64,000 nt of DNA from an uncultured Chloroflexia bacterium (GTDB lineage Bacteria; Chloroflexota; Anaerolineae; B4-G1; SLSP01), in assembly GCA_963751345.1 (NCBI GenBank), contig CAVVUS010000027.1:64001-128000 (forward strand). The letters run 5' to 3'. Position 1 is the first letter of the stretch; every line of letters starts with the position of its first letter. Below the pieces are notes generated by a model. It was not told the origin of the DNA. It saw nothing but the letters and a program-made list of their open reading frames with translations, and made no database searches. Below, piece after piece: positions 3,233-10,775 of the stretch. Position numbers and translations under genes: made by a program.

Positions 3233-3793
3233 CTAGGTCTCAGGGACCTCCCGGTAGACCTCAGGCTTCAAAACACCAATGTAAGGTACATTCCTGTATT
3301 GTTCAGCATAGTCCAGTCCGTATCCCATGACAAACTCGTTAGGGACCTCAAAGCCGACGAAGTCCACCGGGACCTCGATCTCACGGCGGGAGGGCTTGTT
3401 GAGCAGGGTTGCGACCCGCAGGCTGGCCGGGTTCCGGGACGCAAAGTTGCGCAGGATGTAGTCCAGGGTATGCCCGGTATCGACGATATCCTCGACGATG
3501 ATGACGTGACGCCCCTCAATGCTGGAGGCCAGATCCAGGAGAATGCGCACCACACCGCTGCTCGTCGTGCCCTGTCCGTAACTCGAGATCTCCATGAAAT
3601 CGACCTCGTGTCGGAAGCTCAGCTGGCGCGTCAGATCCGCCAGGAACATGAAGGCGCCCTTGAGGATGCAAACAAGGATCGGCGGCTCAGCGTCGCTGTA
3701 CAGGGCATTCATCTCGGCGGCGACGGCAGCGATGCGGTTCCGGATTTGCTCTTCCGAGATCAGCACCCGCTCGACGTCATCTAGCATTGACAT
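3233..3793 (-). CDS. hpt: Hypoxanthine phosphoribosyltransferase
   Basis: ILKGAFMF, VIIVEDIVDTGHTL PRPP motif, FVMGYGLDY. Confidence 0.95.
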   Translation of the reverse strand: MSMLDDVERVLISEEQIRNRIAAVAAEMNALYSDAEPPILVCILKGAFMFLADLTRQLSFRHEVDFMEISSYGQGTTSSGVVRILLDLASSIEGRHVIIVEDIVDTGHTLDYILRNFASRNPASLRVATLLNKPSRREIEVPVDFVGFEVPNEFVMGYGLDYAEQYRNVPYIGVLKPEVYREVPET

Positions 3794-3802
3794 CGCCCCA
3801 CC

Positions 3803-4363
3803 TCACTTCTGGTACACACGCGGCTTGAGGGCGGCGATGTAGGGCAGCGTCCGGAATCGGTCGGCAAAATCCAGGCCGTACCCAACGACCCACACGTCGG
3901 GTATGGAGAAGCCGAGGTAATGAAGCGGCACGTCGACCTCGTGACGATCGGGTTTCGTAAGCAGCGCCGCCGTGCGAAGCGATGCGGGCTGTCTCGCCTC
4001 GAAAAGGCGGTAGAGATAGCGCAAGGTGTACCCTGTGTCCAGGATATCCTCTACAATGAGGATGTGGCGCCCGGCGACGTCGGCACGGGTATCCATAATC
4101 AGCCGCACGGCACCACTACTCTCCGCCTTGTCGGAGTAACTGGAGAGTGCGATGAAATCGACGCGATGGGGCACGGTCAGCCGGCGCGCCAGGTCCGCGA
4201 GGAAAATGAAGGACCCCTTGAGAACCCCTATGAGTAGGAAGTCCTCATTGCGGATCCCCTTGTAATCCGCACTGATGTGGTCGGCCATCTCCTGAACACG
4301 ATTCTGGATGGTCGGTTCATCCAACAAGACGTAGTCAACGGAATCAGGAATCGGCACACTCAT
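3803..4363 (-). CDS. hpt: Hypoxanthine phosphoribosyltransferase, second paralog
   Basis: VLKGSFIF, ILIVEDILDTGYTL, WVVGYGLDF. Confidence 0.93.
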   Translation of the reverse strand: MSVPIPDSVDYVLLDEPTIQNRVQEMADHISADYKGIRNEDFLLIGVLKGSFIFLADLARRLTVPHRVDFIALSSYSDKAESSGAVRLIMDTRADVAGRHILIVEDILDTGYTLRYLYRLFEARQPASLRTAALLTKPDRHEVDVPLHYLGFSIPDVWVVGYGLDFADRFRTLPYIAALKPRVYQK

Positions 4364-4372
4364 TGCAGCTCC

Positions 4373-4960
4373 CTAGCTGGTCGTTCGTCGAGGCACTTCG
4401 TGGTGCGCGCGACAGCGCGCTTCGTACACTTCACTCGCGCCCACGAGGACGATAGGATCCTCGTAGCACGCAGGTTGTCCCTCAATCAGGCGCTGCGTCC
4501 GGCTCGCCGGATGCCCGCAGACGACGCAGATGGCCTGGAGTTTGTCCACTCGCTCTGCAATGGCCAGTAACTGAGGGATCGGACCGAAGGGGACACCGCG
4601 GAAGTCCATATCCAGCCCCGCGCAGATCACGCGTTTCCCATCTTCAGCGAGTTCGTTGCACAACGCGACGATCTCCGGCTCGAAGAACTGGACTTCGTCG
4701 ATCGCGACCACATCCGCAAGCTCATCGAGATTCCGGCGGATGTCGTCGCATCCGTCCACAGGGATTGCATCGGCGTGAAGTCCGTTGTGGGACGCGATCG
4801 CCTTATGGAAGTATCGGGTATCTACGGATGGTTTGAAGACCTGGACCTGCTGGCGTGCGATCTCGGCCCGGCGCAGACGGCGAATCAGCTCCTCCGTCTT
4901 GCCGCTGAACATACTGCCGCAAATGACCTCAATCCACCCCGAATTTGCGTCTGTCAGCAT
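4373..4960 (-). CDS. tdk: Thymidine kinase
   Basis: [28 protein letters not shown], Zn ligands CVVC..RCRAH. Confidence 0.96.
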
Positions 4961-4989
4961 GTCACACTCCCGGCGCGTAGAATGAAACA

Positions 4990-5012
4990 AGGCAGGGGAA
5001 TGTCCCCTGCCT
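4990..5012 (-). terminator. Hairpin after rpmE
   Basis: AGGCAGGGGA-atg-TCCCCTGCCT inverted repeat; on the minus strand followed by TGTTTCATT. Confidence 0.55.
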
Positions 5013-5025
5013 CGCTTTTAGGTCT

Positions 5026-5558
5026 CTACGCGGCTTCCGCCGCTTCGGCTTCTTCTGCGCCCCGGCTTCTGAGAGTGTCTCAGCGGCACCGGAGACGGGT
5101 TCATCACCAGGCAGAACAAACCCGCGTGAGCGGAGTCCTCGCTTCGTATCGGCAAGTGCCTTGAGCCCCACACCCTTGATCTCGGTGAGACCTTCGTCAC
5201 CCTTCTCCGCGAGAATATCCAGAATGTCGCCGACCTTCTCAATCCCGGCTTCCGTCAGGAGATTCTCGAGGCGTGTGCCCAACTCCAGCGACTCAATGGA
5301 CAGCTCGGGCGAGGTTCTGGACGCCTTGCGGCGCTCCTCATCCTGAATCGCTTCCTCACGAGCGCGCAGACGCCGCATAAAGCGATCCACCTGGCCCTCA
5401 GTGTCAACGATACGCTGCTCACCGGTGTAGTAGGGGTGGCATTCCGAACAAACGTCCGTTCGAATCTCGGGCACCGTCGCACCGACGGTCCAGGAATTAC
5501 CGCAAGCACAGATGACCTGCGCCTCAGGATACCACTTCGGATGAAGGTCGGGCTTCAT
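5026..5558 (-). CDS. rpmE: 50S ribosomal protein L31 with C-terminal RNAP alpha-CTD-like (HhH) extension
   Basis: [29 protein letters not shown], then [27 protein letters not shown]...IKGVGLKAL; the true tail is probably [10 protein letters not shown] at 5026 (1-bp shift; ORF track runs to 4962). Confidence 0.93.
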
Positions 5559-5815
5559 GCTGCCACCGCCAATTCCGCAATCACGTTAACACGCTTGCGC
5601 CCATGAACAACGTCATACTTGACGATGCCGTCGACCAGCGAGTAGAGGGTAAAGTCCTTGCCCAGTCCAACATTCGTGCCCGCCTTAAGATGTTCGCCAA
5701 CCTGGCGCACCAAGATATTCCCGGCACGAACGCGTTCGCCACCATACTTCTTGACACCACGGCGCTTGGCGTTGCTGTCGCGACCGTTAGTACCTGTTGC
5801 CTTCTTGCGTGCCAT
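5555..5815 (-). CDS. rpmA: 50S ribosomal protein L27
   Basis: [35 protein letters not shown]. Confidence 0.97.
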
Positions 5816-5817
5816 CG

Positions 5818-6135
5818 CTATGCTCCTTTTGAAATCTCGTCAATACGCAAGCGCATGTAGGTTTGACGATGGCCCATGCGACGTCGGTAGCGCTCTTTTG
5901 GCTTGTACTTGAAGATGCGAATCTTCGGGCCCCGGAATTCCTCCAGGACGGTCGCACGGACCGATGCTCCCTCAACGGTAGGATGCCCCACCGCAACGCC
6001 TTCGTCGTCAGCCACCAGATAGACCTCGCCCAGCTCGACCTGTGCGCCCACCTCGTAAGGGAGACGCTCTACGATGAGTTCGTCCCCAACGGATGCTTTG
6101 TACTGATGTGCCCCGGTCTTGATAACTGCGTACAC
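5818..6135 (-). CDS. rplU: 50S ribosomal protein L21
   Basis: GTG start after GGGAGG; [22 protein letters not shown]. Confidence 0.97.
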
Positions 6136-6160
6136 GTCTTTCCTCCCTAATACACAATAG

Positions 6161-6221
6161 GAGCCGAGCCCTCGCAGGGTCGGCTGCTCAGTGATTATAT
6201 CCGGGGCGAACGATTTGTCAA
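6161..6221 (-). promoter_or_regulatory. Sigma70 promoter and 5'UTR hairpin (possible L21 leader) of rplU-rpmA-rpmE
   Basis: Minus strand TTGACA (6221-6216), 16-nt spacer, TATAAT (6199-6194), then hairpin GAGCAGCCGACCCTGCGAGGGCTCGGCTC. Confidence 0.75.
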
Positions 6222-6234
6222 CCAAACTTTCCCG

Positions 6235-6721
6235 TCAGGTTGAGTTATGCTGCCCCACATCCGCGATGACACGGTCAATCTGAGACTTGATGCCGTCCCA
6301 GTGCGTTCCCTTCCAGTAGATTCTACCACATTCGGAGCACTGGTGAAACTCGCGCTGAGTCTGGGCCACGTAGGGCGGCACGACCGCCGCGGCGGCCTCC
6401 CACGTCAGCGGCTCAAGAATCCCGTTACATTCCATACACCGGGGCGCCCCCACGGGCGGCGACATGCCCACCTCGAGTCAAGACCTGTGCGAGCTGTTCC
6501 GGCAGCGACTGAGACGCGATCAGGATGGACACTACCCCTCTCCTGCGAGCCAGCTCCCGGTCTCGGGTCAAAAGGATCCGTTCCTCTGCCCGGGCACGGT
6601 ACGCGATCATGGCATCATCGCCCTGGAGATAGCGTGTGTCGAATCCCAAGATGCGCAGCCACCGTGCGAGGCTGCCCAGCATTGCGTCCGCCAGGAACTT
6701 TGGGGCTTCGGATTCGGTCAT
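6235..6721 (-). CDS. Mut7-C RNase domain protein (PIN-like plus Zn ribbon), frameshifted
   Basis: FLADAMLGSLARWLRILGFDT, LLTRDREL, RCMECNG, CSECGRIYWKGTHW; shift near 6470. Confidence 0.88.
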
Positions 6722-6839
6722 CACTTCCTCCCTGCTGACTAACCCTGGTATGTTAAGCTCGGGAGACGAACACGCAAGGTTGGCACCCGCAAATCGTTTG
6801 CTTTTCCCCTGTTTCGCGGTAGAAATCATAAAATCCCCC

Positions 6840-6868
6840 TTGCGATAGAATATCCGTTCTGGTATCAT
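6840..6868 (+). promoter_or_regulatory. radA promoter with LexA/SOS-box-like site in the spacer
   Basis: TTGCGA-17 nt-TATCAT; spacer holds AGAAT-ATCC-GTTCT (6847-6860), one mismatch to AGAAC-N4-GTTCT. Confidence 0.65.
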
Positions 6869-6888: not shown

Positions 6889-8268
6889 ATGCCGAAACAG
6901 GATACCCGTTGGGTCTGCCAGCAATGCAATTGGAGCTTCGTCCGACATATGGGCAAGTGCCCCAATTGTGGCGCGTGGGACAGCCTGGTCGAGACCGTGA
7001 TCGAGCCCGAGCCCGGCGCAGCGAGCGCGGTCGCTCCACCCTATGGGGTACAAAGCCCCCAACCTCTCAGTCAGGTGGATATCGGGTCGGTGCCACGCAT
7101 ACCGGTCCCGTTGGGCGAATTCTCACGGGTTCTGGGGGGCGGCCTGGTGCCAGGTTCCATTGTACTGATTGGAGGCGAGCCCGGCATCGGTAAGTCGACT
7201 CTGCTGCTCCAGGTTGCTGCGAGCCTGGGAGACGCCCGGCTGCCGGTGCTCTACGTATCCGGGGAGGAATCGCCCCAGCAGATACGGATGCGAGCCGACC
7301 GGCTTGGGATCGAGGGCGACCCGTTACATCTGCTGTCCGAGACGGAGGTCGGCACAATCCTGGCCCACGCTGACGCGATGCATCCCAACCTCCGGGCGCT
7401 CGTGATCGACTCCATCCAGACGATGCACACGGAGGATCTCACCTCCTCTTCAGGAAACGTCAGCCAGGTGCGCGAATCGGCCAGCCGATTCCAGCGCTGG
7501 GCAAAGCTGCGTGGCATCCCGGTCTTCATCGTGGGTCACGTGACAAAGCAGGGCTCCATCGCAGGCCCCAAGGTACTGGAGCACATTGTCGACACCGTGC
7601 TCTATCTCGAGGGAGATCCGTTTCACGCATATCGCCTGCTGCGCAGCGTGAAGAACCGCTTTGGCGCCACCTCAGAGGTGGGCGTCTTTGAGATGCAGGC
7701 TCGCGGTATGATCGAGGTCGAGAACCCATCGGAGGCCTTCCTCGCCGAACGGATGGTCAACGTTCCCGGCTCAGCAGTGGCCATCACCATTGAGGGCACA
7801 CGTCCTCTGCTGGTGGAAGTTCAGGCGCTGGCCAGCCCCACGGCATTCGGAAATCCAAGGCGCACCGCCAATGGCCTGGACTTCAACCGCCTGCTGCTGA
7901 CCATCGCGGTATTGACCCGTCGCGTTGGCCTGAACCTCGGCGAGCAAGACATCTTTGCGAACGTCGTGGGTGGGCTGCAAGTGGAGGAACCCGCGGTGGA
8001 TCTCGCGGTCGTTCTGGCCCTTACCTCCAGTCTGCGGGATCAGCCGATTCCTGCGGACGTGGCCCTGGTCGGGGAGGTTGGGCTTTCCGGCGAGGTCCGT
8101 TCCGTCGGCCAGCTCGAACCGCGGCTTAACGAGGCAGCGCGGTTGGGGTTCAGCAAGGCTATCATTCCCAGGCGACTTGGGCGCACCGAGCTCACTCTGC
8201 CAAGGGGTCTGGAGGCGATCCAGGTGCGTTCAGTCCGAGAGGCAATTGGGGTCGCACTGCCAAAGTGG
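6889..8268 (+). CDS. radA: DNA repair protein RadA/Sms
   Basis: CQQC..CPNC Zn finger, GEPGIGKS, KNRFG, Lon-like C-terminus; expected stop at 8266-8268 reads TGG. Confidence 0.95.
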
Positions 8269-8292
8269 CTCCCGCAGCGAAGCGAGGAGAGC

Positions 8293-10775
8293 ATGACGCG
8301 GCGCCGTTCTTCGTCATCGCAGTCCGGCAAGCGCACGTCCAACCGGAGTCGTACGCGCCGCAAACCTGCTCCTGGGCCGACCCTGTGGCAGCGTCTCAGC
8401 AAGGACCAGAAACTGGATATCCTGGGCTGGGGACTGGTCGTGCTCTCGGCGCTGACGATCCTCAGTATGGTGTCTGCCCAGCAAGGTGTGCTGACGCAGT
8501 GGTGGATCACGCTACTGAAGCGCGTCTTCGGCTGGGGGCGCTTTGCCGTACCAGTCTTTCTCGGCGCGCTCGGGCTCTGGCTGGTGCTGCGCCATTTCGG
8601 GGATCGTATCCCCACGGCACACCCGGGACAGATCCTCGGGGTTGTGCTGGGCTTCTTCGTCCTCTTGACCACACTGCACTTCGCGGTCAGCCTCGTCTGG
8701 CCCGAGGTCGACATACTGAGCCTCGGGCGCGCAGGCGTTGGTGGAGGTCTACTGGGCGCCGTACTCTTGGGCGCCGGCATCAAGTGGCTTGGGCCGGCTG
8801 GGCTCGTCTTCGCACTCTTGATCGGCTGGATTGCCGTCCTCGCCCTCACGGCTGCCGTTTCCCCCGCCGAAGCGGTGCGTACGATTGCCGAGTGGCGCGC
8901 CAGGCGCGAGGCGGAACGATCGGGCGCGCGAAGAGGCACAGGCCGCCAGGACATTTCCGAGAAGCAGATTCCCACGGAACTCCTTGGGTCGGAGGATGGC
9001 GACTTCGCAGACATTGGCCCGGTGATCATCGGTGGTCCCGGCCGGCCCGCCCCCACGCCCGCCGACCGCGCGAGGGACAGCGATGGGAGACGGATGCGGC
9101 GGCGCGCACCCCGCCTACCATCAACGTTGCGTCTCGCCCCAGTAACGGCAACGGCGAAACACATCCGAGTGGCGAGATCGACCTGGCTCCCCTCGCAGTA
9201 GGGACCCAGACCTGGCGGCTGCCCGTGATGTCTGACATCCTGATAGAGGGCAGCGAACAATCATACAGCGAAGATCTGATTCGCAAGCAGGTCCACATCA
9301 TCGAGGACACGTTGGCCAGCCTGGGTGCGCCGGTCCGGGTTAGCGAGATCAACCAAGGACCCGTGGTCACGCAGTTCGGGGCCGAGCCCCTCTTCATTCC
9401 CGGTCGTGGTGGCAAGAGCACGAAGGTCAAGGTCAGCAAGATCGTGAATCTTGCCGATGACCTGGCGCTCGCGCTATCTGCCAGAAGCATCCGTATCGAG
9501 GCGCCGATTCCGGGCAAGGGGTTGGTCGGTATCGAGGTCCCCAATGAGGAGGCAGCAGTCGTCGCGCTGCGCGACGTTATGGATTCGGACAGTTTCGCCG
9601 GTCTGAAGGGGCATCTGCGCCTCGGTCTGGGTCAGGATGTTTCGGGACAGGCAGTAGCTGCCGACCTGCGGGCGATGCCGCACCTCCTGATCGCCGGCGC
9701 GACCGGTGCCGGGAAGTCCGTCTGCGTGAACGCCATCATCACGGCTCTTCTGCTGCAGAATTCACCCGACACCCTGCGCCTCATCCTCGTCGATCCGAAA
9801 CGCGTTGAACTCACGCAGTACAACGGCATCCCACACCTTCTGGCACCGGTCATCGCGGACGTAGATCGCGTTGTGCCGACGCTGCGCTGGGTCATGAAGG
9901 AAATGGACAGCCGTTACCGGCGCTTTGCCAGTGAGGGTGCGCGCAACATCGACGACTACAATCGCCGAGTCAGGAAGAGCGGATCACAGCTCGTTATCCC
10001 GTACATCGCCGTCCTCATCGATGAGCTCGCCGATCTGATGATGCAGGCTCCCGATGAGGCGGAACGCGTGATCTGCCGTCTCGCCCAGATGGCGCGGGCA
10101 ACGGGCATCCACCTCATTATTGCGACCCAACGACCGAGCGTTGACGTGGTCACCGGCTTGATCAAGGCCAATTTTCCCGCACGCATCGCGTTCGCAGTCG
10201 CCTCGTCTGTCGACTCTCGCGTCATCCTGGACGTACCGGGCGCAGAGCGGCTGCTGGGACGCGGCGATATGTTGTTCGTCCCCCCTGACGTCAGCCAGCC
10301 CCTGAGACTTCAGGGCGCATTCGTCTCCGACCAGGAAATAGAGACTCTGATCAGGTTCTGGCGCACGGCCGTCGAGCCCGAGGGAATCAGCTCGGCCCCG
10401 GGGCGAGGTCGCGAGACGCCCACGGGCTCGAGGTCGATGCGGCGGGCCTTCAAGAGATTGCCGCCACCCAGCCGCAGCTCTTCCCGACTTTCGAAGAGCC
10501 CACGTCGTCGGAATTCGAGTTCGACGACGAGCTGGTGCCTGCGTGTGTGGAAGTCTTCCTCGCAGAGAATCGGGCTTCGACATCGCTCTTGCAGCGCCGG
10601 CTGCGCATCGGCTATACGCGTGCGGCGAGGCTGATGGAGCTGCTGGAGGATCTGGGCATCGTGGCCGAAGAGATGAAAGGGCAGTCTCGAAAGGTCAACC
10701 GCGTTGTCGCGGAGGAGCTATTGCGCTCGATCAACACCGGCGAGACAGCCCCCTCCGAGAGTCCCGCCGTTCTGA
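8293..10775 (+). CDS. ftsK: DNA translocase FtsK/SpoIIIE, frameshifted
   Basis: GAGGAG RBS and ATG 8293; 4TM N-domain; PHLLIAGATGAGKS, IDELADLMM, ATQRPSVDV, LLGRGDMLF; gamma domain STSLLQRRLRIGYTRAARL; shifts near 9090, 10430-10500 and 10765. Confidence 0.93.

What the first reader, a model, noticed from the sequence alone, without database searches (positions are those of the whole stretch)
5026..5558. Ribosomal protein L31 fused to an RNA polymerase alpha-CTD-like domain
Seen: after a normal ~70-aa Zn-type L31 come a charged helix and [30 protein letters not shown]...[20 protein letters not shown]. Established: this matches the alpha-CTD pattern (I..LEL..R..N.L...GI..VGDL...L..I...G.K.L). 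Inference: a ribosome-tethered alpha-CTD mimic could bind NusA, RNAP partners or nucleic acid, giving a lineage-specific transcription-translation link.
Basis: partly seen in the sequence, partly recalled or inferred. Interest (0 to 1): 0.72.

Follow-up and report, generated by a model that had tools for sequence, protein, structure and literature searches.

The report
Ribosomal protein L31 carrying RNA-polymerase alpha-CTD
The only L31 ribosomal protein gene of this Anaerolineae bacterium really is fused to a copy of the RNA polymerase alpha C-terminal domain, a clade-wide feature that may let ribosomes dock onto the transcription machinery, though that function is untested.

Summary
Window 5558 to 4962 (minus strand) is the genome's only bL31 gene, in an L21-L27-L31 operon. 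It encodes a Zn-type L31 core, a charged helix and a 64-residue domain. That domain passes Pfam's RNA_pol_A_CTD cut-off (29.6 vs 23.8 bits). Its AlphaFold model superposes best on solved RpoA alpha-CTDs (Z 10.3, rmsd 1.8 A, 67 of 67 residues).

The fusion is not an artefact. It is present in 37 of 45 sampled genomes of the same class and in none of the listed genomes of other classes. All 80 best species-level loci, mostly Anaerolineae MAGs, carry it.

New here: NusA of the same clade (38 of 45 genomes) carries a paralogous alpha-CTD-derived domain. Both copies share a 3-residue insertion that marks this class's own RpoA alpha-CTD.

The window copy has a frame-breaking indel in its tail.

Function is inferred only. 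My best guess (about 0.4) is a ribosome-borne alpha-CTD-type docking module for NusA or RNAP. I found nothing in print on it. I rate it a new variant of a known kind, of moderate to high interest.

The parts
4962..5558 (-). bL31-alphaCTD ORF as it reads in the window (198 aa, stop TGA 4962-4964)
5026..5558 (-). The TAG at 5026-5028 ends the family-typical acidic tail but is out of frame in this copy.
5370..5558 (-). Zn-type bL31 core, residues 1-63. Cys17, Cys19, Cys37 and Cys40 are invariant in 42 aligned sequences.
5307..5393 (-). Charged linker helix, residues 56-84 (model helix 56-81; net charge +3), ending in the conserved S83-P84
5115..5306 (-). Alpha-CTD-fold (HhH)2 domain, residues 85-148
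5061..5114 (-). Conserved LPGDE motif and the start of the acidic tail, residues 149-166 (disordered in the model)
5046..5062 (-). 17 nt absent from an otherwise identical metagenomic contig. They are flanked by an 8-nt direct repeat, and their presence puts the tail out of the family's frame.
4974..5032 (-). Strong RNA hairpin (core 4985-5017, -38.4 kcal/mol, z -5.08) just after the conserved-frame stop and before tdk
5555..5815 (-). bL27 gene; its stop overlaps the L31 start
5818..6225 (-). bL21 ORF. The Pfam match starts at residue 31, so the true start is probably internal.
6194..6221 (-). Perfect sigma-70 consensus promoter-like site (TTGACA-16-TATAAT) upstream of the L21-L27-L31 genes
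4373..4960 (-). Thymidine kinase gene downstream (ATG at 4960)

Best explanation
ANATOMY (about 0.95 sure). This is the organism's single, functional bL31 gene, and it is a true, old domain fusion. It has a Zn-binding bL31 core, a basic/charged helix, a compact alpha-CTD-fold (HhH)2 domain copied from the lineage's own RpoA alpha-CTD, and a short acidic tail.

MECHANISM (inferred, about 0.4). On the ribosome bL31 bridges the central protuberance and the 30S head, so the alpha-CTD copy should hang on a flexible helix at the top of the 30S head. I propose that it works as a ribosome-borne alpha-CTD-type docking module. It would offer the transcription machinery the same kind of surface that RNAP's own alpha-CTDs offer to NusA in E. 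coli coupling complexes. The likely partner is NusA, through either its N-terminal domain or its clade-specific acidic alpha-CTD-derived C-terminal module. The result would be to tether or hand over NusA/RNAP to the lead ribosome.

WHAT IS SHOWN AND WHAT IS INFERRED. Shown: the reality of the fusion, the fold, the origin from RpoA, the conservation of the basic hairpin residues, and the co-distribution with the NusA copy. Inferred: the position on the ribosome, the partner, and any effect on coupling.

THE WINDOW'S OWN COPY. It carries an indel that replaces the acidic tail with a basic one. This is either an assembly error or a minor allele, and it does not touch the L31 core or the alpha-CTD domain.
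For: - Only one L31 match in the 5.4-Mb genome. It sits in an L21-L27-L31 operon with an ATGA overlap.
- Pfam RNA_pol_A_CTD is over its cut-off. 27 of 28 PDB sequence hits are RpoA.
- The AF2 model (pLDDT 73; 73-80 over the domain) aligns best to solved alpha-CTDs: 1z3e_B Z 10.3, rmsd 1.8 A, 67/67; 4mex_A Z 10.1; 8w9z_A Z 9.5; 2max Z 9.4. NusA AR1 scores only Z 6.1.
- The domain is 39% identical to the genome's own RpoA alpha-CTD (E 2e-12).
- The fused form is in 37 of 45 same-class genomes and in 80 of 80 best species loci. 12 Atlas clusters carry PF01197+PF03118.
- A contig from an RNA library spans the core/domain junction (5205-5488).
- Purifying selection: domain mean pairwise identity is 0.51 against 0.75 for the core over 81 sequences. 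R96 (92%), G131 (97%), K133 (95%), K139 (100%), R143 (91%) and G146 (100%) are conserved. R96, G131 and K133 align with the Arg and Gly-x-Lys of the two hairpins of the B. subtilis alpha-CTD.
- Origin: spacing between the two hairpin motifs is 39 in 21 of 21 class RpoA alpha-CTDs, 39-40 in 11 of 12 L31 domains (1 not measurable), and 36 in 8 of 8 other-class RpoA.
- Link to transcription: NusA of this genome has an alpha-CTD-like domain. Its profile hits T. thermophilus alpha-CTD at E 4.4e-9 with no NusA-AR hit, and all listed rows of its Foldseek hits are RpoA. NusA reaches through that domain in 38 of 45 same-class and 0 of 24 other-class genomes, overlapping the L31 fusion in 36 of 37.
- The L31 and NusA copies group together in the domain tree (94/94, not starred; L31 copies form one clade at 88/90).
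- Charges are complementary: median net charge is +1.5 for the L31 copy and -4 for the NusA copy.
- Published passages: bL31 contacts uS13/uS19 on the 30S head and uL5/5S rRNA (PMC5137454). In E. coli TTC-B, NusA AR2 binds alpha-CTD(I), NusA-N binds alpha-CTD(II), and NusA KH1 binds S2/S5 (bioRxiv 10.1101/2020.03.01.972380).
Against: - No binding, ribosome structure or expression phenotype exists for any member.
- Co-distribution with the NusA copy may reflect as few as one or two ancestral events, so it is weak evidence of a functional link. Two genomes (G121, G346) have the NusA copy without the L31 fusion. One genome (G394) has the fusion while its NusA match stops at residue 352.
- The Asn that aligns with the alpha-CTD DNA-contact Asn is only 43% conserved, so the domain is not a faithful alpha-CTD copy.
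- The L31+NusA grouping in the tree rests on 67 columns, is not starred, and joins two fast-evolving groups, so long-branch attraction is possible.
- bL31's C-terminus lies on the interface side at the top of the head, whereas RNAP and NusA dock near the mRNA entry and body in E. coli. Reach depends on flexible linkers that I could not model.
- Class members without the domain still have a long charged helix and acidic tail on L31, so the extension may serve a ribosome-internal role.
Confidence: 0.4

Rival explanations
1. Ribosome-internal structural extension. The HhH domain and its basic helix bind rRNA or neighbouring proteins at the 30S head or central protuberance. They would stabilise or tune bridge B1b/c, with no role in transcription.
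For: - HhH hairpins are generic backbone binders, and the basic residues R96, K133, K139 and R143 are conserved.
- bL31 is a bridge protein that modulates head movement (passages in PMC5137454).
- Class members lacking the domain still have a long charged helix extension on L31, 97-130 aa.
- Mitoribosomal proteins appear among the weaker fold matches, at Z 5.3-5.7.
Against: - In the model the domain is independent of the L31 core (pTM 0.42).
- Its net charge is near neutral (-3 to +3) and it is followed by an acidic tail, which is unlike typical rRNA-binding extensions.
- This reading does not explain why NusA acquired the paralogous domain in the same clade.
Confidence: 0.3
2. Nucleic-acid tether. 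The domain keeps alpha-CTD-like minor-groove or backbone binding, and holds translating ribosomes on DNA (the nucleoid) or grips mRNA or tRNA near the head.
For: The Arg of hairpin 1 and the Gly-x-Lys of hairpin 2 are conserved. From recall, these correspond to E. coli R265, G296 and K298, which contact UP-element DNA.
Against: - The Asn equivalent is poorly conserved (43%).
- The domain is not basic overall.
- The acidic tail would oppose nucleic-acid binding.
Confidence: 0.12
3. Recruitment of another alpha-CTD-binding factor to the ribosome (an activator-type or Spx-like regulator, or a stress or hibernation factor), unrelated to NusA and RNAP.
For: Alpha-CTD is a known hub for regulators. 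The best structural match is the alpha-CTD from its complex with Spx (1z3e_B).
Against: No candidate partner was identified. The surface around the class-specific insertion differs from that of model alpha-CTDs.
Confidence: 0.1
4. Artefact: a mis-assembly or frameshift that joins L31 to a separate gene.
For: This MAG does contain frame problems, in the L31 tail and in a split Mut7-C gene.
Against: - The junction lies in one frame.
- The fused form recurs in 37 of 45 same-class genomes, in 80 of 80 best loci, and among the 120 best-listed database proteins of 158-183 aa, many carrying both Pfam domains.
- Independent contigs span the junction.
Confidence: 0.01

Closest known systems
RNA polymerase alpha subunit C-terminal domain (RpoA alpha-CTD, PF03118)
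   Same: Same fold and detectable homology: Pfam over its cut-off, 39% identity to the genome's own alpha-CTD, Z about 10 to solved alpha-CTDs. It shares the class-specific 3-residue insertion, and the hairpin Arg and Gly-x-Lys are retained.
   Different: It is attached to bL31 rather than to the alpha N-terminal domain. The Asn of the DNA-contact motif is not conserved. It has its own conserved LPGDE motif. A normal rpoA exists elsewhere in the genome.
Canonical bacterial bL31, type A (Zn-binding), about 70 aa
   Same: The core matches the L31 equivalog models, the four Cys are invariant, it is the single copy in the genome, and it lies in a ribosomal protein operon.
   Different: It carries about 100 extra C-terminal residues: a helix, a folded domain and an acidic tail. 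The type B extension described in PMC5137454 is a 15-aa loop before the first beta-strand, in place of the zinc-binding motif.
E. coli NusA AR2 - alpha-CTD interaction in the NusA-NusG coupled complex (TTC-B; PDB 2JZB)
   Same: It is the precedent that an alpha-CTD module is the flexible handle by which NusA is held in a transcription-translation complex (passages). Here NusA also has an acidic HhH module C-terminal to its KH domains.
   Different: The Anaerolineae NusA module is alpha-CTD-derived rather than AR-like by sequence. The extra alpha-CTD sits on the ribosome, which has no counterpart in E. coli. No interaction has been shown.
Other alpha-CTD fusions, e.g. the RNAP beta' model NF011498
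   Same: The L31 domain matches positions 1317-1371 of that 1459-position beta' model (E 1e-4). Alpha-CTD-like modules therefore occur fused to other proteins. From recall, that model is known as a beta'/alpha domain fusion.
   Different: Those fusions stay within RNA polymerase. This one moves the module to the ribosome.

Membership tests
bL31 (Ribosomal_L31, PF01197 / TIGR00105 / NF000612) | Family HMM match above the curated cut-off | tested here: met
   PF01197 89.6 bits (cut-off 27). NF000612 86.6 bits (cut-off 70) and TIGR00105 82.7 bits (cut-off 38.35).
bL31 (Ribosomal_L31, PF01197 / TIGR00105 / NF000612) | Type A zinc-binding cysteines | tested here: met
   C17, C19, C37 and C40 are present and invariant in 42 aligned sequences.
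bL31 (Ribosomal_L31, PF01197 / TIGR00105 / NF000612) | Serves as the cell's L31 (no other copy; ribosomal operon context) | tested here: met
   1 match in the whole genome. It lies directly after L21 and L27 with an overlapping stop/start.
bL31 (Ribosomal_L31, PF01197 / TIGR00105 / NF000612) | Incorporated in the 70S ribosome between the central protuberance and the 30S head | not testable with these tools
   Location is taken from passages of PMC5137454 for other species.
RNA polymerase alpha-CTD (PF03118) | Family HMM match above the gathering score | tested here: met
   29.6 bits against 23.8, residues 77-142 covering profile positions 4-65 of 67.
RNA polymerase alpha-CTD (PF03118) | Alpha-CTD fold (two helix-hairpin-helix motifs in a compact helical domain) | tested here: met
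   In the VIA-align wide search the top four matches are RpoA alpha-CTDs, Z 9.4-10.3. The best has rmsd 1.8 A over 67 of 67 residues. This is a predicted model with pLDDT 73-80 over the domain.
RNA polymerase alpha-CTD (PF03118) | [quoted passage not shown] | tested here: not met
   The domain is on bL31. The genome's rpoA, with its own alpha-CTD, is on another contig.
RNA polymerase alpha-CTD (PF03118) | DNA-contact residues of the '265 determinant' (numbering recalled for E. coli) | tested here: inconclusive
   The Arg (R96, 92%), Gly (G131, 97%) and Lys (K133, 95%) equivalents are conserved. The Asn equivalent (N99) is only 43% conserved. No binding assay was done.
NusA acidic repeats AR1/AR2 (HhH)2 | Closest sequence and structure relatives are NusA AR domains | tested here: not met
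   No NusA chain is among the 28 PDB sequence hits. NusA AR1 (1u9l_B) scores Z 6.1, against about 10 for alpha-CTDs.

The most novel reading that the evidence does not exclude
In Anaerolineae the alpha-CTD module has been triplicated onto RpoA, NusA and bL31. The three copies would form a lineage-specific coupling network in which the ribosome itself carries an alpha-CTD handle, on bL31 at the 30S head. That handle would bind NusA or RNAP. This would be a physical transcription-translation link whose architecture differs from the NusG-uS10 and NusA-uS2/uS5 bridges of E. coli.
Probability: 0.25. Interest if true: 0.85.

Novelty: new variant of a known kind. Interest (0 to 1): 0.6.

Why it matters
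Transcription-translation coupling has been worked out structurally mainly in E. coli, and how other phyla couple is open. A ribosomal bridge protein that permanently carries a copy of the RNAP module NusA grips in E. coli would be a concrete and easily testable candidate for a different coupling solution in a large, environmentally abundant class. The matching copy on NusA in the same clade strengthens the case. Even if the domain turns out to be ribosome-internal, it is a rare case of a folded transcription-machinery domain recruited into a bacterial ribosomal protein. It also marks a clean evolutionary character for part of the class Anaerolineae.

Tried and rejected
PREDICTED COMPLEX. The NusA C-terminal domain (A3, residues 20-105) with the L31 domain (A2, residues 80-155) gave verdict 'no answer', score 0.00 in both runs, and the controls were not run. 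This counts neither for nor against binding.

FOLD SEARCHES.
- Foldseek on the whole L31 model returned only bL31 chains of ribosome structures in its top 50, so it said nothing about the C-terminal domain. The VIA wide search was used for that instead.
I used Foldseek 'pdb' instead. Its E-values are weak (0.01 and above), although all listed rows are RpoA.

LITERATURE. Six searches found no paper describing an L31-alpha-CTD fusion or an alpha-CTD-like domain on NusA of Chloroflexota. I saw only listings for these, apart from passages of PMC10931766, which were irrelevant. Subscription journals and supplements are not covered. A seventh search was for the coupling-complex literature cited above, not for the fusion.

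READS. No laid contig covers 4946-5027, and only one (run X3) covers 5029-5089. The window's own 17-nt-containing allele could therefore be neither confirmed nor excluded. I make no habitat claim from the run labels.

OTHER CHECKS.
- The simple terminator scan did not flag the hairpin after the TAG. It was found by folding.
- My regex anchor for hairpin spacing failed for 11 of 18 NusA rows and 1 of 12 L31 rows. For NusA I rely on alignment A3, which is gap-free there apart from a 1-residue gap in 2 rows.
- hmmsearch did not detect the domain in 1 of 19 NusA loci examined (L051).
- My first two scripts for extracting L31 ORFs by motif found only 1 and 2 of 11 loci. They were replaced by tblastn.
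- Programmed frameshifting in the tail was considered and set aside. No slippery site was sought and relatives need no shift.

Full report
WHAT IS THERE

On the minus strand an ORF starts at 5558 and, as the window reads, ends at TGA 4962-4964, giving 198 aa. Its ATG overlaps the stop of the L27 gene (5555-5815). The L21 gene lies upstream (5818-6225). Thymidine kinase and two phosphoribosyltransferase genes lie downstream. A perfect TTGACA-16-TATAAT site lies at 6221-6194.

Pfam finds Ribosomal_L31 at residues 1-63 (E 1.4e-25). It finds RNA_pol_A_CTD at residues 77-142 (29.6 bits, gathering score 23.8). NCBIfam agrees: the L31 equivalogs are over their cut-offs, and there are partial rpoA hits at 66-149. 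A whole-genome search finds this as the only L31 match in the 5.4-Mb, 49-contig assembly (completeness 93%, contamination 5.6%). It must therefore serve as the cell's bL31. The four zinc-binding cysteines are invariant in a 42-sequence alignment.

THE C-TERMINAL DOMAIN IS AN ALPHA-CTD

- phmmer of residues 75-155 against PDB sequences gave 28 hits at E<=1. 27 of them are RpoA, and the best are B. subtilis alpha-CTD chains at E about 2e-4.
- An AlphaFold2 model from 42 sequences has mean pLDDT 73. It shows a long helix at 56-81, then helices at 88-91, 95-103, 109-119, 121-125 and 132-144. Residues 153-166 are disordered.
- Foldseek on the whole model returned only bL31 chains.
- VIA-align against 48,161 representative chains put four RpoA alpha-CTDs on top: 1z3e_B (Z 10.3, rmsd 1.8 A, 67 of 67 residues), 4mex_A (10.1), 8w9z_A (9.5) and 2max (9.4). 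Rad51-type HhH domains came next at about 8, and NusA AR1 scored 6.1.
- The domain is 39% identical over 66 residues to the alpha-CTD of the genome's own RpoA (E 2e-12).

THE FUSION IS REAL AND CLADE-WIDE

The protein search returned 5,724 proteins of 108-347 aa at E<=0.001. The best 120 are 158-183 aa, and many carry both Pfam domains in the database's own annotation. The few that carry names are '50S ribosomal protein L31' or 'large subunit ribosomal protein L31'; the organism-bearing names say Anaerolineae bacterium.

I searched 401 genomes of the phylum.
- The match runs through residue 150 or beyond in 37 of the 45 genomes of the same class. These belong to families coded f2 (24 of 24), f3, f4 (9 of 9), f8 and f12.
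- In the other 8 (f5, f6, f7, f9, f10, f11) it stops near residue 80-85.
- Among the listed rows for the 355 other-class genomes, none extends beyond residue 106.
- The unlisted rows all have E-values weaker than 5.7e-24, against 1.6e-33 or better for every fused match.

A scan of one genome per species gave 582 relatives. All 80 kept loci cover residues 1 to at least 147. Their titles name Anaerolineae, Anaerolineales, Thermoflexales/Thermoflexia, Ardenticatenia, Aggregatilineaceae, Phototrophicaceae, Chloroflexia, and unclassified Chloroflexota, Chloroflexi or 'uncultured bacterium' MAGs, plus one MAG labelled Pleurocapsa. The ESM Atlas lists 12 clusters with both families, commonest in Chloroflexota.

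I checked five class members without the domain. Their L31 is 97-130 aa with a long charged helix, often followed by an acidic tail. No separate alpha-CTD-like gene follows it.

CONSERVATION

Over 81 sequences, mean pairwise identity is 0.75 for the L31 core, 0.55 for the linker and 0.51 for the domain. Sixteen positions at residues 83-150 are at least 90% conserved. They include R96, G131, K133, K139, R143 and G146.

In the tool's alignment to the B. subtilis alpha-CTD, R96 falls on the Arg of the first hairpin and G131/K133 fall on the Gly-x-Lys of the second. From recall, these correspond to E. coli R265, G296 and K298 of the DNA-binding '265 determinant'. The Asn equivalent (N99) is only 43% conserved.

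The domain's net charge is near neutral, with a median of +1.5 over 12 sequences.

WHERE THE DOMAIN CAME FROM, AND A SECOND COPY ON NusA

The genome has three PF03118 matches: rpoA, the L31 fusion, and a 681-aa NusA. After its N, S1 and KH domains, NusA carries an alpha-CTD-like domain at about residues 445-515, followed by a long acidic region.

- A profile of 18 such NusA domains hits the T. thermophilus alpha-CTD at E 4.4e-9, and almost only RpoA below that. There is no NusA acidic-repeat hit.
- All listed rows of the Foldseek matches of its model are RpoA. The E-values are weak (0.01 and above), but TM-scores reach 0.91 on isolated alpha-CTD chains.
- NusA matches run through this domain in 38 of 45 same-class genomes and in 0 of 24 other-class genomes.
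- 36 of the 37 genomes with the L31 fusion also have it. Two genomes (f6) have it without the fusion. Six have neither.

All 21 sampled RpoA alpha-CTDs of the class have a segment between the two hairpins that is 3 residues longer than in the 8 sampled other-class RpoAs (spacing 39 against 36). The L31 copies have 39-40 (11 of 12 measurable), and the NusA copies align without gaps to these. This points to an origin of both extra copies from the class's own alpha-CTD.

In a 59-row, 67-column tree the L31 copies form one clade (88/90). They group with the NusA copies (94/94, not starred), apart from the RpoA groups. The deeper order is unresolved, and long-branch attraction cannot be excluded. 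The NusA copies are acidic, with a median net charge of -4.

Relatives end in a short acidic Ala/Glu tail after an invariant LPGD motif. The median tail is 12 residues, with 3 acidic and 0 basic, and many end in Ala-Ala. The window's frame instead gives a basic tail that runs through a strong hairpin to 4962.

The family-type acidic end and a TAG at 5026-5028 are encoded in another frame. One metagenomic contig (run X3, 285 nt) is identical over 5029-5330 except that it lacks 17 nt at 5046. Removing those 17 nt, which are flanked by an 8-nt direct repeat, yields a 171-aa protein with the family's acidic end and the stop at 5026. A single extra G in the GGGG run would do the same, giving 177 aa (inference).

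The hairpin at 4985-5017 (-38.4 kcal/mol, z -5.08) would then be intergenic, just after the stop. A neighbouring Mut7-C gene is also split between two frames. An assembly error is therefore plausible, but a real minor allele is not excluded. The L31 core and the alpha-CTD domain are untouched.

HOW IT MOST LIKELY WORKS

[quoted passage not shown] The extension leaves the canonical C-terminal part, so the alpha-CTD copy should be displayed on a roughly 25-residue helix at the head. This is inference.

In E. coli NusA-NusG coupled complexes, NusA is held to RNAP through alpha-CTD(I)-AR2 and alpha-CTD(II)-NusA-N contacts, and to the ribosome through KH1-S2/S5 (bioRxiv 10.1101/2020.03.01.972380, passages). 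An alpha-CTD copy on the ribosome that keeps the basic hairpin face is therefore a plausible ribosome-side handle for NusA or RNAP, especially in a clade whose NusA has gained an acidic alpha-CTD-derived module.

I put this at about 0.4. A ribosome-internal structural role gets about 0.3, nucleic-acid tethering about 0.12, and recruitment of another factor about 0.1. My one complex prediction gave no answer and counts neither way.

NOVELTY

The two-domain architecture is visible in automatic Pfam annotation. Six full-text searches found no description of it, nor of the NusA copy. Subscription literature and supplements were not searchable.

I class it as a new variant of known kinds: bL31, and alpha-CTD fusions. 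The speculative but testable implication is a lineage-specific coupling architecture.

Noticed in passing
G000 contig C24; locus L004:142-2187: NusA is 681 aa. After the N, S1 and KH domains it carries an alpha-CTD-derived domain (about 445-515), a long acidic region, and a basic C-terminal stretch. In several same-class genomes the NusA match extends to query residue about 676-678, so the extreme C-terminus seems conserved. Its nature is unknown.
   Followed up: partly
window 6238-6471 and 6428-6868 (minus strand): A Mut7-C RNase domain gene is split into two overlapping ORFs in different frames (Pfam profile positions 1-80 and 91-144). This is a frameshift or pseudogene, and a second frame problem within 2 kb of the L31 tail.
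   Followed up: no
window 3233-3793 and 3803-4363 (minus strand): Two tandem 186-aa phosphoribosyltransferase (hpt-like) paralogues lie directly downstream of thymidine kinase.
   Followed up: no
window 6194-6221 (minus strand): A perfect sigma-70 consensus (TTGACA-16-TATAAT) lies inside the 5' end of the longest L21 ORF. The Pfam L21 match starts at residue 31, so the real L21 start is probably downstream of this promoter.
   Followed up: partly
window 6889-9201 (plus strand): The RadA-like ORF is 770 aa. After the RadA-like part it continues into a basic linker and several hydrophobic segments that look like the N-terminal membrane part of another protein. This may be a read-through or fusion with the next gene. 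It was judged by eye from the translation only.
   Followed up: no
loci L143-L147 (G338, G094, G121, G346, G290): Class members without the alpha-CTD still have extended L31 proteins (97-130 aa) with a long charged helix and often an acidic tail. The two f6 genomes have a Cys-less (type B-like) L31.
   Followed up: partly
window 4974-5032 (minus strand): A very stable hairpin (15-bp inner stem, 3-nt loop, plus an outer 9-bp stem) lies between the conserved L31 stop and tdk. It could be a terminator, attenuator or processing or stability element.
   Followed up: partly
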